A stretch of DNA of 64,000 nt from an uncultured Alphaproteobacteria bacterium (GTDB lineage Bacteria > Pseudomonadota > Alphaproteobacteria > CAAHEQ01 > UBA3637), in the NCBI GenBank assembly GCA_947627155.1, contig CANQUX010000004.1, forward strand, positions 22,889 through 86,888, in the 5' to 3' direction. The translations under genes and the position numbers were made by a program. Positions 1 to 55,023 of this stretch are shown piece after piece (positions within the stretch are counted from its first letter, which is position 1; the number at the start of each line of letters is the position of its first letter). A model generated the notes under the pieces. That model had not been told where the DNA came from. It saw only the letters and a list, made by a program, of their open reading frames with translations, and searched no databases.

Positions 1-1207
1 AGAAATCTTAAAAATTGAAGAAACGGTCGAAAAAGAATTAAAAGAACTCGAAAAAAAACAAGCAAGCAATCAAAAAGCGGAAAAGAAACCGCAAAATCAG
101 CAGGCAGACCCTCAAAAAAATAAGCAGCAACAAACCGATTCTCAAAAAAACAACCAACCGAAAACCGAATCGGCACAAACAAAGGAAAGTCAAAAAACGG
201 CAGCTTCAAAAGTTGATGCCAAAGAAGAAAAAGCTGATGTTAAAGAAGAAAACATAGCCACCGTTACCGCCGAGGGCGATTTTATTGTGCCGACCTATAT
301 GCTTCCCGCTAAGGAAGATTTGGAAACGGCGCCGCAAAATAATCCCGCCGAAAATAAGGCATCGGAGGCACCTCAAAACGCACCGGATGCCGCGCAAAAC
401 GCGCCTGTCAATAAAGTTTTGCATCAATCAACGGTTAAAATCACGCAAACGGAGTTAACGCCCGTTGCCGAACAAATGGCCGTCGAGCGGTTTTTAACCG
501 GTAAAACCACCAAAACCATGAAAGCTTATAAAGAAGCGTTGGCGCGTCAAAAAGCGGCTCAAAAAGCCGAGAAAGCGCAAACGAAAGAGAACGGCGCAAG
601 TGAAAATGCCGCAAACGGCAGTGAAAATAAAGCGGATGCAACACAAAATAATGATATTGACGCTTTACTTGAAGATGAAACGTCAAAAGAGGCGAAAAAG
701 CCCAAAAAACGGTTGTTGTTGCCGTTGCGTCCGTTGCCTTCAAAAACACCGCCCGCCGAAGATTTGTCGGGAACGGAACCGCTCTTTAAAGTTGTTTCTT
801 CCACCATGGCGGATCAGGTGTTGAAAGATGCGCAAGATCAAACGCGCAGCTCGCTTTTGATGCCGCAAGATATTAAAGTGACGTTTTATCCCGATTCGGC
901 AGAATTTTCCGGACAAACCGTGAAATGGATTAAAGCTTTTGCTTTGCAGGCGTTGAATGATCCGCGTCGGGTGGTGGAAATTCGGCTCAGTCAATATAAT
1001 CCGATCATGCAGCAAAAACGACTTTCCGTTGTCCAACGGCTTTTAATGAACAGCGGCTTATCGGCACATCAAATTGTGGTCGATTATGTGAATCGTCCGG
1101 CAGACAGTTTAATTTTGCGAACCGTGGAAAAGGTTGAAACGGTTCAAAAACGCAAAATTGAAATGAAAAACGGTAAAGTAAAGGAAAATGAAACAATTAT
1201 CTGGTAA
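1..1207 (+). CDS. Hypothetical Lys/Gln-rich protein with its 5' end outside the window; the C-terminal ~90 aa are weakly OmpA/MotB-like. It is the first gene of the pilus-like operon.
   Basis: The frame starting at nt 2 is open from the window edge with no stop before the listed GTG at 287. The N-terminal part is low-complexity (KKQ...). The C-terminus, 'RLSVVQRLLMNSGLSAHQIVVDY', resembles an OmpA-like peptidoglycan-binding segment. It is tightly followed by the next gene on the same strand. Confidence 0.45.
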   Translation, partial: EILKIEETVEKELKELEKKQASNQKAEKKPQNQQADPQKNKQQQTDSQKNNQPKTESAQTKESQKTAASKVDAKEEKADVKEENIATVTAEGDFIVPTYMLPAKEDLETAPQNNPAENKASEAPQNAPDAAQNAPVNKVLHQSTVKITQTELTPVAEQMAVERFLTGKTTKTMKAYKEALARQKAAQKAEKAQTKENGASENAANGSENKADATQNNDIDALLEDETSKEAKKPKKRLLLPLRPLPSKTPPAEDLSGTEPLFKVVSSTMADQVLKDAQDQTRSSLLMPQDIKVTFYPDSAEFSGQTVKWIKAFALQALNDPRRVVEIRLSQYNPIMQQKRLSVVQRLLMNSGLSAHQIVVDYVNRPADSLILRTVEKVETVQKRKIEMKNGKVKENETIIW

Positions 1208-6345: not shown

Positions 6346-6367
6346 AAAAGCATAAAGGGGATTATTG

Positions 6368-8563: not shown

Positions 8564-8580
8564 TAAATAAGGAGAGATAA

Positions 8581-14185: not shown

Positions 14186-14890
14186 ATGCGTTTTATAAAA
14201 AAATTTTTTTCAAAAGATTTAAATAAAGCTTTTGTACGGGCTTTTGAAAAAGGCTTCTATCAAAAGGCATTGCATTATGCGCAAAAAGGCGCCAATCCCA
14301 ATGCCAAAAATTTTGAAGGAAACACTTTTTTGCATTACTATGTTGCGGCTTATGTTCATGTGCCGGCACGTGAGTTGAAGGCGTTTCATTTACCCCCGGA
14401 ACCCGATGAAAACGTATTGGCGCAAATGAAAGAATTAGGCGCCGATATGGATTGTTTAAATCGTTATAAGCAAACACCGTTGGAAATGGCATTGGAAAAA
14501 GATGATCCGTTTATGGTTTCCGTTTTAATTCGAGCGGGTGCTGATAAAGAACATCGCAATAAAAACGGATTAACGCCGTTGCAAAATGCCGTTTATCACG
14601 GAATGGGTCGTTGTATGCGCATTTTGGTGCGTATGGGTGCCGATATTGAAGCAGAATTAACAACAGCCTCTTCTTTAACGCATTTGGCGGAAAAAGGAAA
14701 AGAAGTTTTCGGCAAGTTTGCACATACGAATTTTGAAAGAGTTGACATGATTTTGCAAGAATTGAAAGAAAAGGGATTTAACGTTGATAAAACGCCGAAG
14801 CCGAAAGAAATAACGGGCTTAGCCATTGTTGAACCCGCTTTCGATATTCAAGTGATTAAAAATTTGCAAAATCAAAATACACGTTCTTAA
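14186..14890 (+). CDS. Ankyrin-repeat protein.
   Basis: Ankyrin units of the 'G.TPLH.A...G' type are visible: 'NGLTPLQNAVYHGMGRCMRILVRMGADIE' and 'YKQTPLEMALEKDDPFMVSVLIRAGAD'. Confidence 0.8.
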   Translation: MRFIKKFFSKDLNKAFVRAFEKGFYQKALHYAQKGANPNAKNFEGNTFLHYYVAAYVHVPARELKAFHLPPEPDENVLAQMKELGADMDCLNRYKQTPLEMALEKDDPFMVSVLIRAGADKEHRNKNGLTPLQNAVYHGMGRCMRILVRMGADIEAELTTASSLTHLAEKGKEVFGKFAHTNFERVDMILQELKEKGFNVDKTPKPKEITGLAIVEPAFDIQVIKNLQNQNTRS

Positions 14891-26590: not shown

Positions 26591-26623
26591 GCGTTGCATT
26601 AAAGGTACGTTTAATTGTATACT
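26591..26623 (+). promoter_or_regulatory. Conserved promoter box of pilin-adhesin gene A.
   Basis: TTGCAT (26594-26599), then 17 nt, then GTATAC or TATACT. The spacer TAAAGGTACGTTTAATT is itself a near-palindrome. The 26-mer is identical to the one at 53549-53574. Confidence 0.45.
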
Positions 26624-26650
26624 GTTCGTATAATGAAAGGGAGTCGGAAA

Positions 26651-29366: not shown

Positions 29367-29807
29367 TTAGCTTTGTTTGAATTCAACAGCGCTCATTTTT
29401 GCAGAGGCGCATCCGTCATTTTTACCCAAAATGCTGGCACCGGCTTTGCAAACGGCATCTGTCGGAAATTCAATATCTAATTTTACAATACCTTTTTTCA
29501 AATCTTCTTCTGAAGAAGAGGTATAAGTAATTTTAGCGCCACCGGGGGTTGTACTGCTGCCGGAATTAATTAAACCGGAACTGGCTAACGTGGGGGTTGA
29601 CCAATTATTGCCCATGGCGCTCGCCGTTTGATAGCTGGAATAAATAACCACGGCAAATTTATTGGCCATATCCAGTGCTTCATTGGCGCGATAACGATTC
29701 ATTGCCATGGAATAACCGGCAATACCGCCAATGGATAAAACGCCGATAATGGCTAAAACGCCCAGCATTTCAACCATTGACCGGCCTGATTCGTTTGTTC
29801 TTTTCAT
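29367..29807 (-). CDS. Type IV pilin, major-pilin-like (PilS-like).
   Basis: Leader 'MKRTNESG|RSMVEMLGVLAIIGVLSIGGIAGY' with Glu at +5. The C-terminus 'CKAGASILGKNDGC' is a disulfide-bonded D-region pair. 146 aa. An AAGGA RBS lies before the second ATG; the alternative start is 29822. Confidence 0.7.
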   Translation of the reverse strand: MKRTNESGRSMVEMLGVLAIIGVLSIGGIAGYSMAMNRYRANEALDMANKFAVVIYSSYQTASAMGNNWSTPTLASSGLINSGSSTTPGGAKITYTSSSEEDLKKGIVKLDIEFPTDAVCKAGASILGKNDGCASAKMSAVEFKQS

Positions 29808-29920
29808 TTTTTGTCCTTTCATTTATGTTGTTTTTTAAGCTCCCCGAGCCAAAAAACGTTTATTTTTAAGGCATTATTGCCTTATTTTCCCTATCGAGAG
29901 ATTTTTTTCTCTCATTTATG

Positions 29921-38168: not shown

Positions 38169-38675
38169 TTATAATATAAAATGAATGCCGTATAAAACAA
38201 ATGAAGCATATAGACCGGCAATAACATCATCTGCCATCACACCGAATGCATTATGTGTTTTTCTGTCAATAATGGAGGCCGGCCACACTTTCACAATGTC
38301 AAAAAAACGAAATAACGCGAATCCGATAAAATAATCATACCATATTAAACCGCTTTGTGCAACCCATAAAAAGGTGAGCAGTTGCCCCACTGTTTCATCA
38401 ATGACCACATAGCCCGGATCGGTTGCTTTTTGCGCTTTTAAAACAACGCTTGTTGCTTGCTGCCCGATGAAAAACAAAAGAATACCGGAAATGAGAATGC
38501 CCCAAAAACCGAGCGGTGCCAGCACAAAAACAAGCGGTAACGTGAAAAACGAACCGGCCGTGCCGGGCGCTTTGGGAGATAACCCCGAAAAGAACCATGT
38601 TGCCACGGCAAAAGCCGCTTTTATTTTCATCGGCTGATTTTTAATGTCGGCAAAATGAACGCGTTGCTTTGTCAT
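38169..38675 (-). CDS. pgpA: Phosphatidylglycerophosphatase A.
   Basis: 'LSPKAPGTAGSFFTLPL' is the PgpA signature. 168 aa membrane protein. Confidence 0.8.
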   Translation of the reverse strand: MTKQRVHFADIKNQPMKIKAAFAVATWFFSGLSPKAPGTAGSFFTLPLVFVLAPLGFWGILISGILLFFIGQQATSVVLKAQKATDPGYVVIDETVGQLLTFLWVAQSGLIWYDYFIGFALFRFFDIVKVWPASIIDRKTHNAFGVMADDVIAGLYASFVLYGIHFIL

Positions 38676-38681: not shown

Positions 38682-40028
38682 TTATGCCTTCGGTGCGGGG
38701 TTTGCGGGCATTGCCGGGGCACGCAATCCGGTAACAACTTGCTGTTTACTTTCTTGCTGTTCTTCTGGCGCCGGTTGTTGTTCCGTTTGTTGCGTCGCTT
38801 GTGATGTCGCTGGCTCTGATGTTGTTGCAGCTGCGGCTTTTTCCGTTGACTCGGCTTGTGTTTCATCAGTTGTTGCAATTTCTTCCGTGTCTTCGGATGA
38901 ATTTGTAATTTCACTTAAACTGGCGCGAATTCTTTCAAGCTCCTCATCAAAATCGGAAGTTTCTTCCTGAGCGGCTTCTTCCGTTGCGGCTGAATTTTCT
39001 TGTGTTTTTGCCTCTTCGGGTTGCGTTTTGGTCGATTCGCTCGGTGTTGCCTCAACGGCAGGCGCTTGTTTTGATTTTAACGGCACTTTTTCAACCGGAT
39101 GCGGTGCCGGATCGGTTTCGCCGTCTTTTAAATCAAAATACGCACTTAAAAACGAAGCCAAATCAGGCAATTCATCTTTGGGTTCGGCATTATTAAAGCC
39201 TAAAAGAAAAATGCCTTTGGAGCGAAAATATTCAACGGCTTGCTTGGTATTTAAAACGCGTCCGTCCGTAACCAATATGGCCGATAACACTTCGGAATTC
39301 GGTTCGGATTTGGCCAATGATTTTGAAGCGCCGATTAAATCTTGCGCCAAACGTTCCATAACGCCGCCCTCCGAATACCATCCGCCGGCCGTGACATCGT
39401 CGGTAAATTCAACCGACCAATTCACTTTCTTTTTGTTGACAATTTCAATTAAAACGGCGCGCGCATCGGTTGAAATGGCCATCGGTACCCGAAAGCCTTC
39501 CAGAAGAATGTGTTGAAAAATTTCCACCTTATATTTTCGCGCCAACGCCGCCGCTTGTTTAATCATTTGCGCTAAATTGGCATGACTCTTTTCACCGGAA
39601 ACCACTTCATCTTTTTGGTTGGGCAACCGCGGCGCCACATAACGATTGATTTGCATGGTGGAAGGCATTTTGCGCGGCATATGATAAATCGGCTTCGATT
39701 CTTTTAACTCGAATTTTGACTGAACTGCTTTTTTCATTTTTATTTTCGGCTTTAATTTTTTCCAATTCAAATGATAGAAAAAATGCCAGCCCCAAAGCCA
39801 AAGCGGAATCCAAGCAATCATCATGAAAAGTAATAATGTATCGGGCAGGGTGTTAATGCGCCATTTGTAATTGAAAAAATCGGTATATCGTTTTTCCCAA
39901 TCTTGCGCCGACAGGAAATTGAAATCTAAAAAATAGCCGATCAGCGGTAGAATAATGTAACCGTATATAATGGCCCACAAGAAGAATGTTAATATCAGTT
40001 TTATCGGTTGTGTTTTTGCTTTTGCCAT
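38682..40028 (-). CDS. Membrane-anchored hypothetical protein with an acidic Gln/Glu/Thr-rich C-terminal tail.
   Basis: Two N-terminal TM segments, a ~200 aa globular region, then 'EEAAQEETSDFDEELERIRASLSEITNSSEDTEE...'. No motif was identified. Confidence 0.45.
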   Translation of the reverse strand: MAKAKTQPIKLILTFFLWAIIYGYIILPLIGYFLDFNFLSAQDWEKRYTDFFNYKWRINTLPDTLLLFMMIAWIPLWLWGWHFFYHLNWKKLKPKIKMKKAVQSKFELKESKPIYHMPRKMPSTMQINRYVAPRLPNQKDEVVSGEKSHANLAQMIKQAAALARKYKVEIFQHILLEGFRVPMAISTDARAVLIEIVNKKKVNWSVEFTDDVTAGGWYSEGGVMERLAQDLIGASKSLAKSEPNSEVLSAILVTDGRVLNTKQAVEYFRSKGIFLLGFNNAEPKDELPDLASFLSAYFDLKDGETDPAPHPVEKVPLKSKQAPAVEATPSESTKTQPEEAKTQENSAATEEAAQEETSDFDEELERIRASLSEITNSSEDTEEIATTDETQAESTEKAAAATTSEPATSQATQQTEQQPAPEEQQESKQQVVTGLRAPAMPANPAPKA

Positions 40029-40040: not shown

Positions 40041-42128
40041 TTAGTTTCCTCTTGAATTGTTGTTGCGTATGTTCATTTGCGTGTTTACATTCTTTTCAAC
40101 ACCGTTTCGAGCATTGCTTAACTGTCGTTGTTGTTGTAAGACTTGTTGTTTTTTCTCATCATTGTCACGCTTTTTGGTTTCTAATTGTTGAGCTTTTGCC
40201 GTTAATTTGTCTTTATTCTCATTGTTAACGGGAACTTTGGTACCGTTTGGTAATTCCACAACGGGATTTTTTAAATTGCCTTTGACGGTTACTTTATCTA
40301 ACGGATCTAATTGGTTAGCTGCTTGTAAAGCTTCGTCGCGCAATTTGGCTTGCTCCGATGTTTGCACTGTTTTGGGCGCTGCCGCTTTCGGTACGGGTGC
40401 CTGTTGTTGCGGCTGCGGCGCTTGTTGTTGCTGCGGTGCCTGTTGTTGCGGCTGCGGTGCTTGCTGTTGATGTTGCGGCGCCTGTTGTTGCGGCTGTGGT
40501 GCCTGTTGTTGCGGCTGCGGCGCTTGCTGTTGCGGTTGCGGCGCCTGTTGTTGCGGCTGCGGTGCCTGTTGTTGCGGTTGCGGCGCTTGTTGTTGCTGCG
40601 GTGCTTGTTGTTGCGGCTGCGGCGCTTGTTGTTGATGTTGCGCCACCTGAATCGTTTGCATTTTCGCCGCTTGCGATGCTATTTCTTTTAATTCTTTTCC
40701 CATCAAAGCCAGGCCGGTTGCTTCATAAGCAACGTTTTTAAAGGGAGGCACTTGGGCATAATGAGTCATATAGGTGGTATAGCGTTTTTTTTGCGCTCGT
40801 GTCATTTTATTAAAATCAATCGTGCCGTTTTCATTTTTCGGTAAACCGGCCGCAAAATCGCGTTTTTCCTTTAATGCCTCTTCATATTTTGAATAAGGCC
40901 CCTTGGAGGGGATTTTTTTATAAGCAGGATCGTTTAATAACCATTCTTGCGTGTCATGCGCTAAAACGGCTGCCAGTTTCGGCATGCTTAACCCGTTGTT
41001 TCTTAAATTCGTATCAATAAATTCATTTCGCTTTGATTGCCGAATTTTATCGTTTTCTTTCATGTTGGCGTGAATTTGATTAAGCCATTCGGTTGCCATG
41101 TCAATGGGCGCCAAAAGAGCCAATTCCATTACTTGAAACATTAAATCTTCGGGATTTTTGCCGGAACCGACTTTTTCAAGACGGCTTAACCCTTTTTCAA
41201 AAATTTTTGAGCTGTCAATGGTTTTTAAATCATCTTTATTAACAGGCGCTTTGTCAAAATAACCGCTGCTGCCGTCACTTGTTTTGACATTAAAAGCTTC
41301 TTGCATTTCGGCTAAATCGGCTTGCTGTTTATCCGGTTCGGTAATGCCTTCTTTCAAGGCAGAATGAATCTCGTTGCCTTTTTGCACTTCTTCTTTTATT
41401 TCTTCCGGAGAGAGCGGCATCGGTTGTTGTGTCGCTTGCGCCGGTTGTTGCGGCTGCGCATGTTGCTCTTGCGGCTGTGATACCTTTTGTTGCGGCTGCG
41501 GCATTTGCACCTGCGCCGCTTGTTTTATCGGTTGTTGTACCGTTTGCATCGGTTGTTGCGGCTGCACTTGTTGCTCTTGCACCTGCGCCGCTGGCTTCGT
41601 CGGTTGTTGTGCCGCTTGCGTCGGTTGTTGCGGCTGCGCTTGTTGCTCCTGCGGCTGCGATACCTTCTGTTGCGGTACTTTTTCCGTCGGCGTTATGTTT
41701 TGTTGCAACTTGTCGGCTTGTAAATTGTTCGTGCTTGTTTTTTCAGAATTGAAAGCTTGCGGATATCTGCTTTTTGCCCAATCCACCCACGCCGATTTTT
41801 GAGCGAGAATGTTGGTTTCATGAAACGATAATGCATTCCCTTTTTCCTTTTTGTCATCAATTTGTTTAATAAGGGGAATTACCTGTGCCAACCGTTGCAC
41901 GCTTTGCTGATTTTGAATGGCCGATACCAGATTTCCCATTTCGGGTGATTGTAGTGCCAATTCTTTGAGTTTGCCTTTATCGCCCGATTTGACGGCTTCG
42001 GTCACATTTTTAATCTGTATTTTGCGTGCCGCCTCCGGAAAGTATTTCATTGCTTCCGTTAAATCGACCGTACTTTGTTGAATCAGTTGTTCCAATTGTT
42101 GATCACTTATAAACGCTTTTGCCATCAC
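40041..42128 (-). CDS. Gln/Pro-repeat protein carrying a conserved ~130 aa domain shared with the protein at 50607.
   Basis: There are 12 or more tandem 'QQQAPQP' units and 'QQPxxAAQVQ' repeats. The central 'DLMFQVMELALLAPIDMATEWLNQIHANMKEN ... WLLNDPAYKKIPSKGPYSKYEEALKEKRDFAAGLPKNENGTIDFNKMTRAQKKRYTTYMTHYA' aligns with the 50607 product. Confidence 0.6.
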   Translation of the reverse strand: MMAKAFISDQQLEQLIQQSTVDLTEAMKYFPEAARKIQIKNVTEAVKSGDKGKLKELALQSPEMGNLVSAIQNQQSVQRLAQVIPLIKQIDDKKEKGNALSFHETNILAQKSAWVDWAKSRYPQAFNSEKTSTNNLQADKLQQNITPTEKVPQQKVSQPQEQQAQPQQPTQAAQQPTKPAAQVQEQQVQPQQPMQTVQQPIKQAAQVQMPQPQQKVSQPQEQHAQPQQPAQATQQPMPLSPEEIKEEVQKGNEIHSALKEGITEPDKQQADLAEMQEAFNVKTSDGSSGYFDKAPVNKDDLKTIDSSKIFEKGLSRLEKVGSGKNPEDLMFQVMELALLAPIDMATEWLNQIHANMKENDKIRQSKRNEFIDTNLRNNGLSMPKLAAVLAHDTQEWLLNDPAYKKIPSKGPYSKYEEALKEKRDFAAGLPKNENGTIDFNKMTRAQKKRYTTYMTHYAQVPPFKNVAYEATGLALMGKELKEIASQAAKMQTIQVAQHQQQAPQPQQQAPQQQQAPQPQQQAPQPQQQAPQPQQQAPQPQQQAPQPQQQAPQHQQQAPQPQQQAPQQQQAPQPQQQAPVPKAAAPKTVQTSEQAKLRDEALQAANQLDPLDKVTVKGNLKNPVVELPNGTKVPVNNENKDKLTAKAQQLETKKRDNDEKKQQVLQQQRQLSNARNGVEKNVNTQMNIRNNNSRGN

Positions 42129-42187: not shown

Positions 42188-42823
42188 CTATATTTTTAAT
42201 CCTTTTAAAAATTTGGCAATTTTGGCGTTTTCCTCTTTGGCGGCCTCCGGCGTTAAAATGGAATTACCCGATGAATCAATTGTAATAATGGGTGAAAAAT
42301 AGGCCGGGTTGGAAATGAGTGTATCATAAGCTTTTTTGGCATCTTTTCGATACATAATAAAATAGCAGGACATGAGTTTATAGGCATCAATGTGGAAATG
42401 TTGCGCATTGATTTGATCACCGAACGTGCGCACCAGTTCTTTCCGCCGGTTTTCTTCCTGCCGGATTTCATTTAAAACCCGAGTTGTTTCCTTCAATAAT
42501 TCAACGTTACGTTTGTAAATGGTTTCTTCCTGTTGTTTGAGCTTATATTCCATATAATCCAAAATAATATCTTTCCAAAACGGTTGATCATTGTAGTTTT
42601 GCTGCACAATTCGCAAAATATCTTTGACCTCACAGGTATTAATATCTTTCACACTGCATAAATATGAAACAATGGCAGCAGATTCTTTTTCAGCCAACGC
42701 AACGGGAAAATTTTGAACGTTGTATTGCGTTATGTCAATGGTGAGCTGCGGCGCCGCCGATAAAACGCTGCGCTGTGCATAGAGCCGGGAATATAAGCCG
42801 TAAAGAATGTCATTTGCCGCCAT
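42188..42823 (-). CDS. Hypothetical protein.
   Basis: 211 aa, soluble, no motifs. It is co-oriented with the Gln-rich gene. Confidence 0.45.
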   Translation of the reverse strand: MAANDILYGLYSRLYAQRSVLSAAPQLTIDITQYNVQNFPVALAEKESAAIVSYLCSVKDINTCEVKDILRIVQQNYNDQPFWKDIILDYMEYKLKQQEETIYKRNVELLKETTRVLNEIRQEENRRKELVRTFGDQINAQHFHIDAYKLMSCYFIMYRKDAKKAYDTLISNPAYFSPIITIDSSGNSILTPEAAKEENAKIAKFLKGLKI

Positions 42824-42991
42824 GTTGTTTTTTCCTCCCTCGGATATTTTTTAAAAATTTTTTGACCGTTTCAACGGTTGTTTCTTTCAGTATAAGCATA
42901 AATTTTAAAAAATCTACTAAAAAGTGTTGTCTTTTTTAAAAATATGGTGTATTATGGTAGTATAAGGTTAATTATTTAAGGGGAAAAATCA

Positions 42992-44515
42992 ATGAAAAAA
43001 CGCCTTTTTCTTATCTTAACTGCTTGTGTAACAACACTTTTCTGCTTTATTCCTTTTTCGGTACAAGCAGCGGGTTGGCTAACTAAAATTGCCGGTTCTA
43101 TTTTCCAAGGAGTCATGAGTATATTGGGTTTTGGTGACTCATTGAACGGGTGGTGTTGGTTTTGTCCCATTATTGAGACTTTGTTGAAAGGGGCTAACAC
43201 AATTTCGTGCAACATCTATCTTAGAACCAAAGATGAACTTTTAATCTTGTTGGGTGTGGGTACGTTGTTTTTCATTGCCTTTAAAGTGGGCGCCATGGTT
43301 GTTAAATTGCAGGAAGTTGACTTAATGCAATTTATGGGCGAAATGTTTAAAGTTTTGGGTCGCGTTATTATCGCGGCAGCTATTTTATCTTCTGCGCCGT
43401 TTGTTGTTGACAATATTATTACGCCGTTTGTGGCTTATTCAACCGATTTTGCTTTAAAAGCGTTGGATGATAAAAATATTGATGTGAGCAATAAAATTTA
43501 TAAAAAAGTTAAAGGTATGCTCGATTATGACGATCAGGCACGCGAGCAAGTAGAGGCTGCCGCAACCGCTGTTGTTACCTGGGCCGGACAAGATAATTCC
43601 GATTCGTGTGTCTTTATTAACAGTGCGTTGATTCAAAGTATGAAAGCCATCGTTGCCAAAATCACCGCAAATTTGGTTATCGGCTTGGCTGTCGGGTTGG
43701 TGTTGATTGTGTTCAGCGGACTTTCTTCTTTGGTCTTCCCTGATTTGCAAAGCGTGTTATCCGGCGGTGTTATCTTTATGTCCTTCGCGGTCTTAATTGT
43801 GACGGTACCGTTTCAAATGATCAATTTGGCAATTCAATTGGTGTTCGTGCTGGCTTTGCTACCGTTCTGGGTGGTGTTGTGGGTTTTCCCCGTTACGGCG
43901 CAATATACCAAGAAAGCGTGGGATATGTTTGTTACAACCTGCTTGTCAATTATGATTTTCGGTATTTTGGCGGCTTTGGTGTTAAATCTGCTGAATTATA
44001 TGTTGCCGAACGGCAGTGATATTTTGGGCGATATGATTCCGGGCTATGATTTGCTTGCCGGCAAAAAAGCCAGTGCTTTCTCTTCAAGCACTTTGTTAAC
44101 GCTTGCTTTGGGCTTCTTGTGCAAAGAGCTTTTAAAATCGGCACCCGAATTGGCTTCCCGTATTACCAGTGTTTACGGTATTCAGGTTGGTGAGTCAATG
44201 GCTTCGTCCATTTCTGCCGCCATTGCGGGCGGTGCGGCAGCCGGCGGTACCATGTTCGGTTTGGCAAAAGCCTTTGGCGGCACGAGTCTTGAAACGGCTC
44301 AATCAGTCGGCAAGAAAGGCAGTGAATTGTTCAGGGGTACGTTTGGTCTGGAAGAGGGTAAGAGCTTGCAAGATAAATATTTGTTCGGTAGTTCAAGCAG
44401 CAGCTCCGATTCCGGATCCAAAGCCGCAAACAGAAACACTTATCAACAACCGCAGGCGGGTAGCTCAAATTCAACGGCGCAAGCATCGCAACAACAAACA
44501 ACATCGAAAAAGTGA
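42992..44515 (+). CDS. Polytopic membrane protein, paralog 1 of a tandem trio, with a CWFCP motif.
   Basis: Signal peptide. 'NGWCWFCPIIETL' before TM1. About 6 TM segments. The conserved 'LLPFWVVLWVFPVTAQYTKKAW' segment is also seen in paralog 3. The tail is Gly/Ser/Gln-rich. Confidence 0.6.
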   Translation: MKKRLFLILTACVTTLFCFIPFSVQAAGWLTKIAGSIFQGVMSILGFGDSLNGWCWFCPIIETLLKGANTISCNIYLRTKDELLILLGVGTLFFIAFKVGAMVVKLQEVDLMQFMGEMFKVLGRVIIAAAILSSAPFVVDNIITPFVAYSTDFALKALDDKNIDVSNKIYKKVKGMLDYDDQAREQVEAAATAVVTWAGQDNSDSCVFINSALIQSMKAIVAKITANLVIGLAVGLVLIVFSGLSSLVFPDLQSVLSGGVIFMSFAVLIVTVPFQMINLAIQLVFVLALLPFWVVLWVFPVTAQYTKKAWDMFVTTCLSIMIFGILAALVLNLLNYMLPNGSDILGDMIPGYDLLAGKKASAFSSSTLLTLALGFLCKELLKSAPELASRITSVYGIQVGESMASSISAAIAGGAAAGGTMFGLAKAFGGTSLETAQSVGKKGSELFRGTFGLEEGKSLQDKYLFGSSSSSSDSGSKAANRNTYQQPQAGSSNSTAQASQQQTTSKK

Positions 44516-44541
44516 TAACGCGATAAAAAAGAGGGCAGACG

Positions 44542-45876
44542 ATGATTTATTTGAACAAAATCCGTTGTTCTATCGAAAAACTTTCAAAAGGAATGTTTTT
44601 ATTGTCCCTTCTGTTTTTAGGTGGCTGTTCCACGAATATTGATTCGATGATGATTACCCAGCTGTTGCTGGCAAAGGAAGAAAATTGTTGGCCGTGTACC
44701 ATGTATAAAGTAATATGGGAGGGTATCGGAACGCTGGTTTCGAATATTTATCCCGAGTTGTGCGGTGACGCCCTGGTATTTTTGGGTATCGGTCTGTTAT
44801 TTTGGATTTGCTTTACGGTCGGGAAATTGGTTGTTTCAATAAAAGAGCCGAATTTAAAAGATTTTATCAGCAATATGGCAACGGTTCTTTTTAAAGCCAT
44901 GGTGATTGCCGTTATTTTATCGGCTCATACTTATACGATTTATTTCTTGGATTTGATTGTCAGGAATGTATTGGAAGCATTTATGGATTTAACCTTGAAT
45001 ATTATGTTTTCAAGTCAGACCATTGCCAAAAGTTTGGCAACGGGGCATGTGTATGAGGGTGATATTGTTTCTACCGCTTCCGGTGCGGGGAATATTCTTT
45101 TTACAAGCGAAATCGGTCATCAAATACAAGACTTGATTTATCGTATTTATGTCGGCTTTCACGGCGGTTTGAGTTTGGGTGTTAATTTAATTTTTCAAAC
45201 GGATCCGTCTTTGGTTGTAACGGGTTTGTTTGTAACAGCCATATTCTTTTATTTAATGCTGATTATTCCGTTGTTGTTTATTGAGGCTTTTGCTTTGTTG
45301 GGTGCGGTTATTGTGTTTTTCCCGCTGGCGTTGGTGCTGTATGTTTTCCCGTCAACAAAGGCTTATGTGGTTCCCATGTGGAAGGTGTTGTTTGTTTCAA
45401 TGGCACAAATTTTGGTGACCGGTGTTTATATGGCGGTGATGATTCATGTGGTGCAGGTGTTTTCGGATAATATTCTGTCGCCGAGTCGCATTTTGTCCGA
45501 TCCGCTTTTGATGATGAATTTGAAAAATATGAAAGATCAGTTTTTGGCATTTTGTGCGTTGGCATATATTATGTATCGTATGTCCAAAGATATTCCGAAC
45601 ATTTCTTCCAAACTGCTGGGTGACTTTAACCGATCCATGATGTTAGCCGGTGTTTCAAAAGCCATTAATTTAGGTAAAAATATCGGTATGGCGCTGGGTG
45701 GTGCCGCTTTGGCGGGAACCGGTGTTGCCGGAGGTGTGGGTCTTTCCATGATGATGAGTGCCGGCAAAGGTATGATGGAAAATACGCGAAATCCTGACGG
45801 ACAAGGCGGTTCTTCCGGATTAAGTACGGCGGAACAGGCGCAACAGGCACAACAGGCTGCTGCCAAACCGAAATAG
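44542..45876 (+). CDS. Polytopic membrane protein, paralog 2, with a CWPC motif.
   Basis: Lipobox-like 'LFLGGCS'. 'ENCWPCTMYKVIWEG' before TM1. 'FFPLALVLYVFPSTKAYVVPMWKV' segment. Gly/Ala/Gln-rich tail. Confidence 0.6.
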   Translation: MIYLNKIRCSIEKLSKGMFLLSLLFLGGCSTNIDSMMITQLLLAKEENCWPCTMYKVIWEGIGTLVSNIYPELCGDALVFLGIGLLFWICFTVGKLVVSIKEPNLKDFISNMATVLFKAMVIAVILSAHTYTIYFLDLIVRNVLEAFMDLTLNIMFSSQTIAKSLATGHVYEGDIVSTASGAGNILFTSEIGHQIQDLIYRIYVGFHGGLSLGVNLIFQTDPSLVVTGLFVTAIFFYLMLIIPLLFIEAFALLGAVIVFFPLALVLYVFPSTKAYVVPMWKVLFVSMAQILVTGVYMAVMIHVVQVFSDNILSPSRILSDPLLMMNLKNMKDQFLAFCALAYIMYRMSKDIPNISSKLLGDFNRSMMLAGVSKAINLGKNIGMALGGAALAGTGVAGGVGLSMMMSAGKGMMENTRNPDGQGGSSGLSTAEQAQQAQQAAAKPK

Positions 45877-45891
45877 GGAGAAGGAGAAAAT

Positions 45892-47952
45892 ATGAAACAC
45901 ATAATCCGACTTTTCTTCTTTATTTGCTTAATCAGTATGGGAGCTGTTCTTTCTCAATTGAATTTGGGTAACGGACAAGCGGTGTTTTGGGTTTGTTTCG
46001 GATTAACGCTTATTATTGGCGGCAGTGCTTGTTTTTACTTCATCCGTGTTAAAAATCATAAATTGTTATTGTTAATTGGTGTCGCTCTTTTTTCTGTGTG
46101 CTTATTTTCCGGTTCAATCGGTTACGCGGACAGTGTCAGGGTGAGTAATTTGGGACAGCAAGATAAGCTGAATGATTATAAAAGCTGGGTTTCTTCTTTT
46201 GAGAGCGCGTTAAAAAATGATAACACGTTGAAAGATTATGACGGCATTATGGACGGGACAAAAATTCCCGTTATTAACGGCGAGACTGCGCAGTTAGCTT
46301 CGCGGGCCAATTTGGCTTGTCAAATGCTTGAATACAGTGACAGCAATGAGGCCGGTTCTTATGAGGATACGTGTGAAAATGCCAAAAAATATACCGATGT
46401 TGTCGGAAAAGTTTATAACAGTATGGGATCGGGATGCAGTCCCATTGCCAGTATCGTTAAAAACATATTGAATAAAAATTCCTGTTGGCCATGTGATGTA
46501 ACGGCATTGGTTATTACCGCCATTCAGGAAGTTGCAAAAAGTTCACATGAGGTTATGACAAAGGCAGCGCTTAATTTAATGGGCGGATTATTTTTGCTGT
46601 GGTTAGCTTATGTAACATTGGCCTTTTTCGGTAAGTTCGGTTTTGCGCGTATTTCCGAATATTTAACAAACGTTTTAAATAAAGCGATTCTTGTTTTAAT
46701 TGTGGCAGCCTTTTTGCATTTACCGGTTCCGGAAATTTATAGTAAAACCGTTTCGCCGTTTGTGCAGTTTACGGCGGGATTGACACAGGTGTTTTCGCAA
46801 GAGGGTGAAGCTGCCGCGAAAAAAGCAGGTAAAACATTACACATATTGCAAAACATCATTACCGGCGGTACAAATCCGAAATGTAAATATTGTGATAATA
46901 TGAGCAGTTCAATGGCTGATGATTCGCCGTCATTTTTGGATCAAGGATCCGTGAACGGCTTATTGTGTACCGTTTGTACGGTTTATCATCAGGTTGCACC
47001 GATGATCAGTTTAGGGCAAGGGCTTTCCTGTTTTTCGGGAATGTCCCAAAAATCCAACAGTGACAGTAGTACAATCGGCGGTACTTCCTCATTCGGCGTT
47101 CCCCGAATAGGCGCTTTGCTGGCCGGAACAACCATTGTGTTGATTTTCTCGTTTTTGATGTTTATGATTGCCTATTATATCATTTCATCGGTGTTACAAT
47201 TAGGGTTTGTTATTATTTTATTGCCGTTTTGGATGGTTGCTTTTGTCTTTAAGGCCACACGGGAGTATACCAAAAATGCATGGATATTGGTTTTGCATGC
47301 AATGGGAACATTGATTTCGCTATCATTAAACGTTGCTCTGGTAATGGTCGGATTTAGTGAATTGTTATCCGGAAAAGTTGCTTTGGCACTCGGTTGGGGT
47401 ATTATTTCCGGCTCGCCGACAACTGTGATGGATGCTTTTACGGGGGGTGAAATTTTTCAATCTCAAAGTGAAGGAGATGGTTCATTTTTCTCGGGATTAA
47501 CGGATAAGCTCATTGATTTTGCCGTTAATCAGGCAATCGGTATGTCACCGACGCATGCTATTCTTTTGCTGATTGCATATGCTATTTTGTCCATTACGAT
47601 TGTCAGCAACACTTCGTTTTTTGTTGAACGTATTTTAGATGCCTGGATTAACAGAGAAGCCAACCCGCAAGGAGAAATGATGGCCGGTATTCAAGCTGCC
47701 GGTAAAGGGATTGGTTCCATGTCGCGGTTAGGTGCTGCCGGTGCAGGTGCTGCTGTCGGTGCGGTATCGGCAAGTTATGCTCGTATGCGTGATAAGCTGG
47801 ATAAGCAGCGAGCAGAGGCATCGAAATCGAGTAAAGGGCATACACCTAATACATATGGAAGTACGGCTGCCGAGATTATTAACCGTAATGTTTACGGATG
47901 GGAAGATAAGAAAACGTCGGATAAATCAAAAGAAAAATCAACAAAGAAATAA
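45892..47952 (+). CDS. Polytopic membrane protein, paralog 3, with a CWPC motif.
   Basis: RBS GGAGAAGGAG. 'KNSCWPCDVTALVITA'. 'ILLPFWMVAFVFKATREYTKNAW'. Additional 'CKYC' and 'CTVCTV' motifs. A long Ala/Gly/Ser/Lys tail. Confidence 0.6.
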   Translation: MKHIIRLFFFICLISMGAVLSQLNLGNGQAVFWVCFGLTLIIGGSACFYFIRVKNHKLLLLIGVALFSVCLFSGSIGYADSVRVSNLGQQDKLNDYKSWVSSFESALKNDNTLKDYDGIMDGTKIPVINGETAQLASRANLACQMLEYSDSNEAGSYEDTCENAKKYTDVVGKVYNSMGSGCSPIASIVKNILNKNSCWPCDVTALVITAIQEVAKSSHEVMTKAALNLMGGLFLLWLAYVTLAFFGKFGFARISEYLTNVLNKAILVLIVAAFLHLPVPEIYSKTVSPFVQFTAGLTQVFSQEGEAAAKKAGKTLHILQNIITGGTNPKCKYCDNMSSSMADDSPSFLDQGSVNGLLCTVCTVYHQVAPMISLGQGLSCFSGMSQKSNSDSSTIGGTSSFGVPRIGALLAGTTIVLIFSFLMFMIAYYIISSVLQLGFVIILLPFWMVAFVFKATREYTKNAWILVLHAMGTLISLSLNVALVMVGFSELLSGKVALALGWGIISGSPTTVMDAFTGGEIFQSQSEGDGSFFSGLTDKLIDFAVNQAIGMSPTHAILLLIAYAILSITIVSNTSFFVERILDAWINREANPQGEMMAGIQAAGKGIGSMSRLGAAGAGAAVGAVSASYARMRDKLDKQRAEASKSSKGHTPNTYGSTAAEIINRNVYGWEDKKTSDKSKEKSTKK

Positions 47953-47979
47953 GTGTCGAAAAACGAGTATCATAAAAAA

Positions 47980-48006
47980 AACCTTGGTTTTCCCAAGGTT
48001 TTTTTA
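47980..48006. terminator. Bidirectional intrinsic terminator between the membrane-protein trio and tRNA-Leu.
   Basis: Stem AACCTTGG/CCAAGGTT (8 bp), loop TTTTC, flanked by A8 on the 5' side and T5 on the 3' side. Confidence 0.65.
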
Positions 48007-48095
48007 TGGTGCGGAAAGCCGGAATCGAACCGGCACGGGAGCAAAGTCCCAACAGATTTTAAGTCTGTTGCGTCTACCAGTTCCGCCATATCCGC
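48007..48095 (-). tRNA. tRNA-Leu (anticodon TAA).
   Basis: The reverse complement reads GCGGATATGGCGGAACTGGTAGACGC ... anticodon loop CTTAAAA ... long variable arm ... GGTTCGATTCCGGCTTTCCGCACCA, with the CCA encoded. Confidence 0.9.
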
Positions 48096-50606: not shown

Positions 50607-51395
50607 ATGGCTATTGAAGAAATGAAAGCAAATAACAAGACCGATCAAACGGCTTTGGAAGAGAAAAAGCAAAAGCTTGAAAATATGGCGGAAAAGGAAA
50701 AGGCACGAAAACTTTCCGAAGTGTTTGATTTACCGACGGGACAAAACGGTTATTTAGATGATGTGTCTTTGGGCAAAGAAGAAAAGGCAACGGTTGATTG
50801 GGATCAGGTTTTGGATAAAGGTTTAGAGAGATTGAGAAAAATGAATGTGAAAAATCCCGATGATTTGATTTTCGCTTTATTTGAAATTATGTTGTTATCG
50901 CCGATTGATATGATGACAAATGCTTTGAACCAAATGCGTAAAAATATGAAAGAAAATCGTAAAAAAGAGGAATCAACACGTCAGTCATTTATTGAAAATA
51001 ACTTAAAAAGTAATAACTTAACAAAGGTGTCTTTGGCGGCAAAGCTTTCGCGTCAGGTGCAAAATTGGTTACTGAATGATCCGGCATATCAAAATTTACC
51101 GGCACAAGGCCCTTATACGAAATATCAAAAAGCAATTATGGAAAAGCAAAATTTTGCGGCGCGTTTACCGAAATCGGCGGACGGAAATATTGATTTTTCC
51201 CGGATGACATTTGCGCAAAAACGCCGATTTACCACTTATCTCACCTGTTTTGCCCGTTCAAACATGTGGCGGCAATATTTAAATGAAATGAGTGGTGTGC
51301 GGTTGCGGGAAAGCGAAGTGCAATCCATTAAAAATTCCGCCGCTCGTATGAAAATGGTGCGTTTGCCGAAAGAAGCGTTGGTGAATACGCGGTAA
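50607..51395 (+). CDS. Hypothetical protein, paralog of the conserved domain of the Gln-rich protein at 40041-42128.
   Basis: 'DLIFALFEIMLLSPIDMMTNALNQMRKNMKEN ... WLLNDPAYQNLPAQGPYTKYQKAIMEKQNFAARLPKSADGNIDFSRMTFAQKRRFTTYLTCFA' aligns collinearly with the 40041 product. RBS GGAGG. Confidence 0.6.
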   Translation: MAIEEMKANNKTDQTALEEKKQKLENMAEKEKARKLSEVFDLPTGQNGYLDDVSLGKEEKATVDWDQVLDKGLERLRKMNVKNPDDLIFALFEIMLLSPIDMMTNALNQMRKNMKENRKKEESTRQSFIENNLKSNNLTKVSLAAKLSRQVQNWLLNDPAYQNLPAQGPYTKYQKAIMEKQNFAARLPKSADGNIDFSRMTFAQKRRFTTYLTCFARSNMWRQYLNEMSGVRLRESEVQSIKNSAARMKMVRLPKEALVNTR

Positions 51396-53604: not shown

Positions 53605-55023
53605 ATGAGCAATAAAACAAGAAAAAAACAAATCGAAAATCAAACTCAACAAGGCCGTTCAATGGTTGAAATGCTCGGGGTGCTGGCTATTATCGGTGTT
53701 ATTTCAATCGGTGGCATTGCCGGTTACAGAATGGCCATGAATCGATATCAAGCGAATCAAATTGCGAATGAAATCAATCTCATGCGTACCGATGCGAAAA
53801 TGAAAGTTGCGCGCGGCGTGGAATTATTGCTCGGTGAGCCGTATGACGGTGACGACGGGCATTTGAATTTTAATGCAAATTATGGCGTTGCGGTTAAATT
53901 TGAGGAAATAGGAACAGACACGCCGGGTGAAACGGAAAAGGGCTATTCGTTTACGTTATCAAACATTCCTGAAGGGGTGTGTAAACCGTTGGTAGCCTTG
54001 TTAGATAACATGGACGACACGGCTGATATAAAAATAGGTGACAAAAGTTATTATGATGAGCAGGATAATTTCTGCGGTGAAACGAATGAAGTAATGGTCG
54101 CCTTCTCAACCAAAGATATAGGCGGGGCGAGCAGCGGAAGCGGAGAGGAGCCGGAGGTAACAGACCCGGATCAAGGCGATGAGCCGCATGAATGTGATCC
54201 GGAGACATGCCCGGGAGAATGCAACGAAGAAGGAGTATGTGAATGTCCGGAAGGAAGCCATTTAAAAGGCGATGAGTGCGTGAGTTGTTCGGGCGGAAAG
54301 GTATGGGACGAAGGTAGTAATGATTGCGTTTGTCCGGCGGGAGCAGAAAAATCCGGAGAAGATGGCGAAGAATGTGCGTGCAGTACCGAGAAACCGCATT
54401 GGAATGGTACCGAATGTACGGCGTGTCCGAACGGCAGCACTTGGGATAGTACAACCGGCGAATGCAAATGTGAAGGTAATAAAGTCTGGAAAGAATCAGT
54501 GAGTGGAGAAGATAAATGTGTAGAAATTGTCGGAGAATGCGAGAGCAATGCCGATTGCGGGCCGGGAGAGTATTGTTACATATATTATGGATATGATTGT
54601 CATGACGGCCAGGAATTTCAATCCGGCAAATTTGGTGCTGGAAGATACGATTATACGAGTGAATGCCGGAATGCGCGCAAAGATGCAGTAATAGGAGAAA
54701 AGACTGGTTTTGCATTAGGTTGGCCGGAAGAAACGAAAAGTAATTCTAAATATATGGATTGGTGGAGCGCCGGGCGATTCTGTGAGGCATTAGGAAGGAA
54801 ACAAGCAACGCGGGCAAGCATCGGGTGTGGCGAGGTGTCGTCCGGAGGCACATGTGACAGTCAGATAAGAAAGGATTTGTACGAGGATTTTGGTAGCGGT
54901 TATGTTTGGTTGTACGATATGTGCAATGATTCTTCCTGCGCCGCGTACTACGTTCTCCTCTATAGCGGTGGCGTCTACAACTACAATCGCTACACCGGCA
55001 ACACCTACGCCTTATGTGAGTGA
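53605..55023 (+). CDS. Modular minor pilin/tip-adhesin candidate B (paralog of 26651-28012).
   Basis: Leader 'MSNKTRKKQIENQTQQG|RSMVEMLGVLAIIGVISIGGIAGY'. The N-terminal ~65 aa are ~75% identical to A. The shared pilin core is 'IPEGVCKPLVALLDNMD'. The Cys-rich stalk is divergent ('CDPETCPGECNEEGVCECPEGSH...'). The conserved C-terminus is 'MDWWSAGRFCEALGRKQATRASIGC'. Confidence 0.7.
   Translation: MSNKTRKKQIENQTQQGRSMVEMLGVLAIIGVISIGGIAGYRMAMNRYQANQIANEINLMRTDAKMKVARGVELLLGEPYDGDDGHLNFNANYGVAVKFEEIGTDTPGETEKGYSFTLSNIPEGVCKPLVALLDNMDDTADIKIGDKSYYDEQDNFCGETNEVMVAFSTKDIGGASSGSGEEPEVTDPDQGDEPHECDPETCPGECNEEGVCECPEGSHLKGDECVSCSGGKVWDEGSNDCVCPAGAEKSGEDGEECACSTEKPHWNGTECTACPNGSTWDSTTGECKCEGNKVWKESVSGEDKCVEIVGECESNADCGPGEYCYIYYGYDCHDGQEFQSGKFGAGRYDYTSECRNARKDAVIGEKTGFALGWPEETKSNSKYMDWWSAGRFCEALGRKQATRASIGCGEVSSGGTCDSQIRKDLYEDFGSGYVWLYDMCNDSSCAAYYVLLYSGGVYNYNRYTGNTYALCE

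What the first reader, a model, noticed from the sequence alone, without database searches (positions are those of the whole stretch)
42992..47952. Tandem trio of paralogous polytopic membrane proteins with N-terminal CW(F/P)C motifs and low-complexity tails (VirB6/TrbL-like architecture?)
Three consecutive genes of 507, 444 and 686 aa each encode the same layout. There is a signal peptide. A Cys-Trp-(Phe/Pro)-Cys motif lies just before TM1 (CWFCP, CWPC, CWPC). There are 5-7 TM segments with a conserved 'LLPFW..V..VF..T..YTK.AW' block, and a Gly/Ser/Ala/Gln-rich hydrophilic tail. The trio ends at a bidirectional terminator abutting tRNA-Leu. Multiple tandem polytopic paralogs with extended tails are the hallmark of VirB6 (RvhB6) arrays in Rickettsiales-type type IV secretion systems. 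The CxxC motif is not something I can assign to that family from memory, so this may be a distinct, undescribed family. No VirB4, VirB9, VirB10 or VirB11 genes are in the window.
Basis: partly seen in the sequence, partly recalled or inferred. Interest (0 to 1): 0.7.

Follow-up and report, generated by a model that had tools for sequence, protein, structure and literature searches.

The report
Divergent VirB6-like membrane protein triad
Three neighbouring genes in an uncultured gut alphaproteobacterium encode very divergent relatives of VirB6, the central inner-membrane platform of type IV secretion systems; no standard domain model recognises these three proteins, and the same gene triad is conserved in about 50 related loci.

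Summary
Three co-oriented ORFs (507, 444 and 686 aa) are true paralogs (BLASTP E = 6e-21 to 2e-7). They share a near-invariant periplasmic C-W-x-C motif, a conserved P..F..T..YTK.AW block and Gly/Ser/Ala/Gln-rich tails. No Pfam, NCBIfam, PHROGs or PADLOC model hits them.

The VirB6 reading is nevertheless supported on three counts:
- 38 of 59 distant family members individually hit Pfam TrbL/VirB6.
- Profile-profile alignment to real VirB6 lands on the block holding VirB6's essential Trp.

The A-B-C order, together with a divergent 211-aa cytoplasmic partner (U1, no known fold), is conserved in gut Alphaproteobacteria MAGs. B-type members are lipoproteins.

No VirB4, VirB8-11 or VirD4 gene lies in the window or within 10 kb of any array, with one exception. 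A related MAG has VirD4 about 10 kb from its array. The window's own genome has an orphan TrbC/VirB2 pilin gene just upstream of the window.

Best reading: these are extended-VirB6 subunits of a dispersed, rvh-like type IV secretion system. This is a new variant of a known kind.

The parts
42992..44515 (+). Protein A (507 aa): extended VirB6-like subunit. It has a cleavable signal peptide (~1-26), periplasmic CWFC at 55-58 capping the first long helix, six to seven long helices, the invariant P291..F299..T302..Y305..W310 block and a disordered G/S/A/Q-rich tail (414-507).
44542..45876 (+). Protein B (444 aa): VirB6-like paralog with a lipoprotein signal (lipobox LGGC, Cys29) and CWPC at 49-52.
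   Evidence: Paralogy to A, E = 6e-21. Lipobox in 37 of 41 B orthologs, CWxC about 20 residues after the lipid-anchor Cys.
45892..47952 (+). Protein C (686 aa): VirB6-like paralog. It has an N-terminal extension (three hydrophobic segments plus a Cys-rich soluble region), CWPC at 198-201, and two extra CxxC motifs (331, 359) in the central insert.
   Evidence: Paralogy to A 3e-15 and to B 2e-7; hydropathy and Cys map. C-type orthologs occupy the third position in essentially all loci.
42188..42823 (-). U1 (211 aa): divergently transcribed cytoplasmic all-helical protein, the invariable partner of the array. Function unknown.
42824..42991 (.). 168-bp divergent intergenic region between U1 and A, the presumed promoter and regulatory region for both transcription units.
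   Evidence: Gene coordinates. Promoter-like matches on both strands (+42927-42955, -42874-42846, -42998-42971), consensus matches only.
47973..48005 (.). Symmetric intrinsic terminator hairpin (A9-CCTTGG-TTTTC-CCAAGG-T7) ending the A-B-C unit and abutting the 3' end of tRNA-Leu.
   Evidence: Read directly from the sequence. tRNA-Leu at 48007-48095 on the minus strand.
40041..42128 (-). U2 (695 aa): soluble protein with Q/P-rich repeats flanking a conserved ~220-aa core (275-495). A frequent syntenic neighbour.
   Evidence: Found in 24 loci. The core is 44% identical to window 50607-51395. No family or PDB match.
38682..40028 (-). U3 (448 aa): N-terminal membrane segments, a conserved central domain and an acidic tail. 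It always sits next to pgpA and is often, but not always, next to the array.
   Evidence: Found in 24 loci. It moves together with PgpA to about 7 kb away in L007, L019, L024 and L025. No family or PDB match.
38169..38675 (-). PgpA (phosphatidylglycerophosphatase A), a syntenic neighbour of U3. Probably not part of the system.
   Evidence: PF04608, 4e-38. Synteny.
50607..51395 (+). 262-aa paralog of the U2 core domain, 2.6 kb downstream of the array.
   Evidence: BLASTP 4e-66, 44% identity to U2 275-495. The same gene sits at the same place in L008 and L009.

Best explanation
A, B and C are three anciently diverged paralogs of the VirB6/TrbL superfamily, of the 'extended-VirB6' type. 

Shown:
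- They have the VirB6/DotA fold.
- They are linked to PF04610 through intermediate sequences.
- The A-B-C order and the partner gene U1 are conserved across about 50 loci from gut Alphaproteobacteria.
- The CWxC motif lies on the periplasmic side, because B is a lipoprotein and A has a signal peptide.

Inferred:
- By analogy with R388 TrwI and Legionella DotA, which form pentamers at the centre of the machine, the three proteins probably assemble into an inner-membrane-anchored periplasmic platform or protochannel.
- Retention of three distinct orthogroups in fixed order suggests a hetero-oligomer or three specialised platforms.
- The platform would recruit VirB2-type pilin and conduct substrates for a type IV secretion system whose other genes are dispersed around the chromosome, as in the Rickettsiales rvh system.
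- The CWxC caps the first long helix, the helix that in R388 carries the proposed VirB2 recruitment site. It most likely forms a periplasmic disulfide or an inter-subunit redox or metal site that stabilises the top of that helix.
- The disordered C-terminal tails would be cytoplasmic.
- U1 would be a dedicated cytoplasmic assembly factor, chaperone or regulator.
For: - Sequence bridge: the family profile recovers 1,816 cluster representatives. 38 of 59 distant ones hit PF04610 (best 1.8e-8), and one is named 'type IV secretion system protein' by NCBI.
- Profile-profile: hhalign gives E = 0.011 (A2 vs VirB6 family) and 2.7e-4 over 86 columns (A5 vs VirB6 family). Both align family P291-x7-F299-x2-T302 with VirB6 P179-x7-F187-x2-T190, next to the essential Trp (PMC2653234).
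- T4SS genes in the lineage: a TrbC/VirB2 pilin gene (40.7 bits, gathering threshold 27.9) lies 386-748 bp upstream of the window in the same genome. VirD4 lies about 10 kb from an array that includes a U1 homolog in MAG GCA_017958225.1.
- Conservation: the A-B-C order and U1 are conserved.
- Periplasmic location of the motif: lipobox in 37 of 41 B orthologs.
- Precedents: VirB6 pentamer and VirB2 recruitment on helix alpha1 (PMC9259494); a DotA pentamer with periplasmic disulfides (PMC12501162); tandem RvhB6a-e arrays of 674-1154 aa (PMC2653234); the extended-VirB6 class (PMC12857230).
Against: - PF04610, NCBIfam and PDB sequence profiles do not hit A, B or C themselves.
- The hhalign probabilities are low (3.7% and 42%).
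- No VirB3, VirB4, VirB8-11 or VirD4 gene is in the 64-kb window, in about 18 kb walked outside it, or within 10 kb of the array in about 50 loci, apart from the VirD4 in L049/L050.
- Unlike rvh, the array is not next to virB3-virB4.
- I could not inspect whole genomes, so a complete T4SS is not demonstrated.
- The oligomeric state, the chemistry of CWxC and the role of U1 are pure inference.
Confidence: 0.6

Rival explanations
1. This is an autonomous envelope machine built from VirB6-fold proteins. A, B and C, with U1 and perhaps U2 and U3, would form a stand-alone inner-membrane and periplasmic complex that has been uncoupled from type IV secretion. It might act as a channel, a membrane or lipid-homeostasis device, or a surface-structure platform.
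For: - No T4SS core gene lies within 10 kb of the array in about 50 loci.
- The synteny partners are family-specific unknowns (U1, U2, U3) plus PgpA, a lipid phosphatase.
- The context is chromosomal housekeeping.
- The family carries features absent from canonical VirB6: CWxC and the lipoprotein B-type.
- More distant arrays embed large Peptidase_M23 proteins and a separate conserved module of an HTH regulator plus four unknown genes.
Against: - VirB6-fold proteins are known only as T4SS components.
- The same genome keeps an orphan VirB2 pilin gene, and a related MAG has VirD4 near the array.
- Dispersed T4SS genes are normal in Rickettsiales (PMC2653234).
Confidence: 0.25
2. This is a decayed remnant of an integrated conjugative element inserted at tRNA-Leu. 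The VirB6-like genes would be leftovers of a former conjugation system with no current function.
For: The array abuts a tRNA gene, a typical integration site. T4SS core genes are missing nearby.
Against: - All three ORFs are intact and are conserved in the same order at 25-73% identity across about 40 species-level MAGs.
- The downstream flank differs between lineages while the upstream partners persist.
- GC content matches the surroundings.
- No integrase or relaxase lies nearby.
- There is no match in 72,556 plasmids.
Confidence: 0.04
3. This is an unrelated helical membrane transporter family whose resemblance to VirB6 is convergent.
Against: - 38 of 59 family members hit PF04610.
- The motif spacing P-x7-F-x2-T is shared with VirB6.
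- No transporter family matches.
Confidence: 0.03

Closest known systems
TrwI / VirB6 of conjugative and effector T4SSs (Pfam PF04610 TrbL/VirB6; R388 structures 7O3V and 8RT9)
   Same: - It has long hydrophobic helices.
- The conserved helix-turn-helix block has the same P-x7-F-x2-T spacing followed by a Trp.
- Distant members of the family score on PF04610.
   Different: - The three window proteins do not reach PF04610 even at E <= 1.
- They are 1.5 to 2.3 times longer than VirB6.
- They carry an N-terminal export signal and a periplasmic CWxC absent from the VirB6 alignment.
- One paralog is a lipoprotein.
- They are not in a virB operon.
- They come as a fixed triad with a unique partner, U1.
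RvhB6a-e arrays of the Rickettsiales vir homolog (rvh) T4SS, and the VirB6-1..4 arrays of Anaplasmataceae
   Same: - Several tandem, highly diverged VirB6 paralogs with long flanking or hydrophilic extensions.
- T4SS genes dispersed among housekeeping genes.
- An alphaproteobacterial host.
- Conservation limited to the region around the invariant Trp (PMC2653234, PMC7648143).
   Different: - RvhB6 proteins all hit COG3704 and PF04610, and the array follows rvhB3-rvhB4 (PMC2653234). Here there is no PF04610 hit and no adjacent virB3 or virB4.
- There are three copies here rather than four or five. Relatives have five.
- The hosts are uncultured gut Alphaproteobacteria, not Rickettsiales by their record names.
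- U1 and the CWxC motif are not reported for rvh.
DotA of the Legionella Dot/Icm type IVB system (9NGY)
   Same: - Signal peptide, then two N-terminal transmembrane helices, then long hydrophobic helices with a hydrophilic insert.
- Periplasmic disulfides (PMC12501162).
   Different: - DotA has a 530-residue extended domain of unique fold and pairs with IcmX.
- No Dot/Icm genes or IcmX-like partner were found here.
- No sequence similarity was detected.

Membership tests
TrbL/VirB6 (Pfam PF04610) | Significant match of the protein itself to the PF04610 profile | tested here: not met
   hmmscan of A, B and C at E <= 1 gave no TrbL hit. NCBIfam gave none either.
TrbL/VirB6 (Pfam PF04610) | Homology through intermediate sequences or profile-profile comparison | tested here: met
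   38 of 59 distant members, each matching the family profile at E <= 1e-56, hit PF04610 (best 1.8e-8). hhalign against a VirB6 alignment gave E = 0.011 and 2.7e-4.
TrbL/VirB6 (Pfam PF04610) | VirB6 three-dimensional fold (seven long helices, as in R388 TrwI) | tested here: met
   [not shown]
TrbL/VirB6 (Pfam PF04610) | Essential invariant Trp after the conserved P...F..T segment | tested here: inconclusive
   The family has W310, conserved in all three window paralogs. In the hhalign alignments it lies one position after the column of VirB6 W197, while P, F and T align exactly.
Type IV secretion system (functional component) | A VirB4-family ATPase encoded in the same genome | not testable with these tools
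   Absent from the window, from about 18 kb walked outside it, and from +-10 kb of about 50 loci. Whole genomes could not be fetched.
Type IV secretion system (functional component) | Other dedicated T4SS genes in the same genome or lineage | tested here: met
   TrbC/VirB2 pilin (PF04956, 2.8e-10, above the gathering threshold) lies 386-748 bp upstream of the window on a contig 100% identical over the 2000 window bases compared. VirD4 lies about 10 kb from the array in L049/L050.
Rickettsiales rvh-type VirB6 array | Several tandem, divergent, extended VirB6 paralogs | tested here: met
   Three in the window. Three to five in related loci.
Rickettsiales rvh-type VirB6 array | Array immediately downstream of rvhB3-rvhB4 | tested here: not met
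   The upstream neighbour is the divergent U1. phmmer with VirB3 and VirB4 finds nothing in the window or the loci.
DotA/TraY (type IVB) | Sequence match to DotA-family models, or Dot/Icm neighbours | tested here: not met
   [not shown]

The most novel reading that the evidence does not exclude
The A-B-C triad with U1, and perhaps U2 and U3, is a self-contained envelope machine that has co-opted the VirB6 fold outside type IV secretion. It would be a hetero-oligomeric periplasmic dome anchored by a lipoprotein subunit and carrying a ring of redox- or metal-active CWxC sites. It would be specific to mammalian-gut Alphaproteobacteria.
Probability: 0.2. Interest if true: 0.8.

Novelty: new variant of a known kind. 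Interest (0 to 1): 0.5.

Why it matters
- **Evolution of the rvh system.** Proliferation of VirB6 into tandem, extended paralogs has been treated as a peculiarity of the Rickettsiales rvh system. Here an equally old and strictly ordered triplication occurs in uncultured Alphaproteobacteria from mammalian guts, including human samples. It sits in a family of about 1,800 sequence clusters whose members in this window go unrecognised by standard annotation. That widens the known diversity of VirB6 and gives a comparison point for how rvh-type systems evolved.
- **Gut biology.** It suggests these little-known gut bacteria may carry a dispersed secretion or pilus system relevant to host or microbe interactions.
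- **Tractable handles.** Three concrete features are absent from the model systems: a periplasmic CWxC cap on the helix proposed to recruit pilin, a lipid-anchored VirB6 subunit, and a dedicated cytoplasmic partner of unknown fold.
- **Annotation.** A new profile for this clade would annotate thousands of 'hypothetical' proteins.

Tried and rejected
- **Direct family scans.** Pfam, NCBIfam, PHROGs and PADLOC scans of A, B, C, U1, U2 and U3 gave nothing meaningful.
- **PDB sequence searches.** The trio profile and U3 gave no match; U2 gave only three chance-level hits (best E = 0.029).
- **Plasmids.** tblastn of A against 72,556 plasmids gave no match, which argues against a plasmid or ICE origin.
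- **Reference sequences and libraries.** The R388 accession BR000038 is not in the plasmid collection, so pTiC58 was used instead. The afdb50 fold library was unavailable.
- **Cryptic T4SS parts.** The four conserved unknown genes after the HTH_3 regulator in distant loci, and the small 76-aa genes next to U1, have no Pfam signal.
- **Walking the window ends.** The right side shows only housekeeping genes. The left side gave the TrbC/VirB2 gene but nothing else.
- **More VirB2 copies.** A search near other arrays found none.
- **Terminator scan.** The simple scan did not list the hairpin at 47973-48005. I accepted it from direct reading.
- **Literature.** No paper describing this clade was found.
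Full report

Yes. The three ORFs are exactly where stated: 42992-44515 (A, 507 aa), 44542-45876 (B, 444 aa) and 45892-47952 (C, 686 aa). All are on the + strand and are separated by 26 and 15 nt. Pairwise BLASTP shows true but old paralogy: A-B 6e-21, A-C 3e-15, B-C 2e-7, at 20-24% identity.

The Cys-Trp-x-Cys motif is at A55, B49 and C198. In a 39-sequence family alignment the invariant columns are C55, W56, C58, G258, P291, F299, T302 and Y305. Across deduplicated orthologs from about 50 loci, C[W/F]xC is present in more than 90% of each type: CWFC in A, mostly CWPC in B and C.

The tails are 43-59% Gly+Ser+Ala+Gln, against 22-30% elsewhere in each protein. The tail of A is predicted disordered. 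tRNA-Leu(taa) lies at 48007-48095 on the minus strand. The symmetric hairpin A9-CCTTGG-TTTTC-CCAAGG-T7 at 47973-48005 is visible in the sequence, although the simple scan missed it.

- B carries a lipoprotein signal, with a lipobox in 37 of 41 orthologs.
- C begins with three hydrophobic segments and a Cys-rich soluble region rather than a plain signal peptide.

**2. What do direct database searches say?**

Nothing. Pfam (including PF04610 TrbL/VirB6, at E <= 1), NCBIfam, PHROGs, PADLOC and a PDB sequence-profile search all fail on A, B and C. The word-indexed search of 5.8 billion proteins found only 44 relatives. None has a Pfam domain, and the few that are named are 'MAG: hypothetical protein [Alphaproteobacteria bacterium]'. 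No plasmid encodes anything similar.

**3. Structure.**

An AlphaFold2 model of A built on the family alignment has a well-predicted core: pLDDT 75-90 for residues 60-160 and 210-340, and pTM 0.63. It consists of six to seven very long helices, a poorly predicted insert (160-210) and a disordered tail.

Foldseek against the PDB returns chains of the R388 T4SS stalk complex as its nine best hits (probability 1.00, TM 0.51-0.63 on the target). After those the probability falls sharply.

**4. Sequence bridge.**

An exhaustive HMMER search with the family profile against 1.84 billion cluster representatives finds 1,816 proteins at E <= 1e-3 and 594 at E <= 1e-30. I took 59 of the lower-ranked listed hits, all still at E <= 1e-56 to my profile. 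Of these, 38 individually match PF04610 (best 1.8e-8). One (MBP5160745.1) is named 'type IV secretion system protein' by NCBI, the same generic name PGAP gives A. tumefaciens VirB6. These distant members keep the CWFC consensus.

I fetched the pTiC58 virB operon and built a 27-sequence VirB6 alignment. hhalign gives E = 0.011 over 53 columns for the close family and E = 2.7e-4 over 86 columns for the distant members.

Both alignments fall on the family's invariant block and match it to the conserved VirB6 residues: P179-x7-F187-x2-T190 in VirB6 against P291-x7-F299-x2-T302 here. A conserved Trp (W197 in VirB6, W310 here) is offset by one position. The rickettsial literature describes this as the only conserved part of VirB6 domains and as containing the essential Trp (PMC2653234).

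Fold, transitive profile hits and motif spacing together make homology to VirB6/TrbL very likely. I put it at about 0.9. The window proteins themselves still fail the formal PF04610 test.

**5. Genomic context and distribution.**

A scan of GTDB species genomes gave 40 loci. Nearly all are from uncultured Alphaproteobacteria MAGs, and those whose records name a source come from guts: rabbit, buffalo, roe deer, yak, sheep, and human Hadza and Nepali samples. The window itself is chromosomal housekeeping DNA, with ClpB, a ParC/GyrA-type topoisomerase, RlmN, an FtsN-like SPOR protein, PgpA and MsrAB.

BLASTP of the window proteins against all ORFs of the loci shows that the order A, B, C is fixed everywhere. 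Each position is a separate orthogroup, so the triplication predates the radiation.

A 211-aa gene (U1, 42188-42823, minus strand) is divergently adjacent to the array in 45 of 52 loci. U2 (695 aa, Q/P-rich), U3 (448 aa, membrane N-terminus) and pgpA accompany them in 24 loci, but U3-pgpA can move away.

Some lineages have five paralogs (A-A-A-B-C). In distant lineages A and C reach 800-970 aa, which fits the 'extended-VirB6' class (PMC12857230). More distant arrays also contain giant Peptidase_M23 proteins. They are followed by a conserved HTH_3 regulator and four unknown genes that are absent from the window.

**6. Is there a type IV secretion system?**

phmmer with all A. tumefaciens VirB1-11 and VirD4 proteins, run against six-frame translations of the window and every locus, finds only two things: the pilus ATPase at 6365-8563, which is a weak VirB11 superfamily hit, and a VirD4 fragment. 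So the array is never inside a virB operon.

Two positive findings exist:
- In MAG GCA_017958225.1, a VirD4 coupling protein (PF02534, PF10412, PF12696) lies about 10 kb from an array that contains a U1 homolog. PPDK and ribosomal-protein genes lie in between.
- Walking left from the window on a contig 100% identical to it over the 2000 window bases compared, a 120-aa gene lies 386-748 bp before window position 1. It hits PF04956 TrbC/VirB2 pilin at 2.8e-10 (40.7 bits; gathering threshold 27.9) and has the typical signal peptide plus two hydrophobic helices.

An orphan VirB2 gene and a VirD4 gene embedded among housekeeping genes form the dispersed pattern known from the Rickettsiales rvh system (PMC2653234). 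I could not retrieve whole genomes, so VirB4 and VirB8-11 remain unverified.

**7. Mechanism (inferred).**

In R388, five VirB6 subunits form the base of the central stalk. Only helices alpha1 and alpha2 span the inner membrane. The remaining hydrophobic helices form a periplasmic dome that carries the VirB5 pentamer, and alpha1 is the proposed VirB2 recruitment site (PMC9259494, PMC12857230). In Legionella, DotA forms a pentameric chamber whose periplasmic domain has five potential disulfides per monomer (PMC12501162).

By analogy, A, B and C should form inner-membrane-anchored pentameric or mixed assemblies at the centre of a secretion or pilus machine. The CWxC sits at residues 55-58, at the N-terminal cap of the first long helix (58-105) in the model. 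It is periplasmic, because A has a signal peptide and B is lipid-anchored about 20 residues upstream of the motif. A structural disulfide or an inter-subunit redox or metal site at this cap is the most economical reading.

Keeping three orthogroups in fixed order suggests either a hetero-oligomer or functional specialisation. The same open question exists for RvhB6a-e.

**8. Rivals.**

- **Autonomous VirB6-fold machine, uncoupled from T4SS (about 0.25).** Nothing I could test excludes it. It is favoured by the private partners U1-U3 and by the absence of core genes nearby.
- **Decayed ICE remnant (about 0.04).** The intact, ordered conservation across about 40 species and the native GC content contradict it.
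- **Convergent unrelated transporter (about 0.03).** The near-complete structural superposition and the PF04610 hits of family members contradict it.

**9. Novelty and score.**

I found no paper describing this clade. It is best filed as a new variant of a known kind: a divergent, extended VirB6/TrbL subfamily with its own signature (periplasmic CWxC, a lipoprotein paralog, an ordered triad, and U1).

It is moderately interesting. A T4SS or Rickettsiales specialist would find VirB6 proliferation outside Rickettsiales, in mammalian-gut Alphaproteobacteria, noteworthy. The family is large and unannotated. The fold and general role, however, are those of a known component. Interest: 0.5.

Noticed in passing
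window 287-9708 (+), continuing upstream in L053 8614-18467: A type IVb, R64 thin-pilus-like gene cluster. It comprises a 450-aa unknown gene (truncated at the window start), a TcpQ-domain protein (1242-2168), a secretin (2152-3804), a PAP_PilO protein (3816-5144), an unknown gene (5119-6345), a 732-aa T2SSE ATPase (6365-8563) and a T2SSF platform protein (8581-9708). No pilin gene was identified in it.
   Followed up: partly
L053 8011-8373 (-), i.e. 386-748 bp upstream of window position 1: An orphan TrbC/VirB2-family T4SS pilin gene (120 aa, PF04956 2.8e-10). It is divergently adjacent to the type IVb pilus cluster and surrounded by housekeeping genes. It is unclear whether this pilin works with the VirB6-like triad 44 kb away or with the neighbouring pilus genes.
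   Followed up: partly
window 40041-42128 (-) and 50607-51395 (+); also L023, L026 and L027 (ORFs of 2325-2598 aa): The ~220-aa core of U2 (residues 275-495) is a recurrent domain. A 262-aa paralog lies 2.6 kb downstream of the array (44% identity). Giant 2,300-2,600-aa proteins in other MAGs also match U2, but only weakly (E = 9e-10 to 6e-7), so that link is tentative. U2 itself has long, near-perfect QQQAPQP repeats. These could be secreted or surface proteins.
   Followed up: partly
window 14186-14890 (+), 22989-24047 (+); L005 368-1693: Eukaryote-like repeat proteins in this lineage: an ankyrin-repeat protein and a protein with five Sel1 repeats in the window, and another ankyrin protein in a related MAG. 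This hints at host interaction.
   Followed up: no
L051 10044-14027 (+), L052 5515-8580 (+): In more distant arrays, a 1,000-1,300-aa Peptidase_M23 protein sits between VirB6-like genes. One has a weak T6SS VgrG3-like C-terminal match. It could be a VirB1-like cell-wall hydrolase or a toxin.
   Followed up: no
L007 15372-21059 (+); also L049, L051 and L052 downstream of the arrays: A second conserved module follows the array in 8-16 of the more distant loci: a double-HTH_3 regulator (~320-345 aa) and four unknown genes (~390, ~505, ~393 and ~238 aa) with no Pfam signal. It is absent from the window.
   Followed up: partly
window 38682-40028 (-) with 38169-38675 (-): U3 (448 aa; membrane N-terminus, conserved central domain, acidic tail) is always adjacent to pgpA, even when the pair is displaced from the VirB6-like array. 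It may be functionally tied to phospholipid metabolism rather than to the array.
   Followed up: no
window 26615-28012 (+), 29367-29822 (-), 53605-55023 (+): Three window ORFs with no Pfam hit cluster together with ORFs from other loci. They appear to be a lineage-specific paralogous family of unknown function.
   Followed up: no
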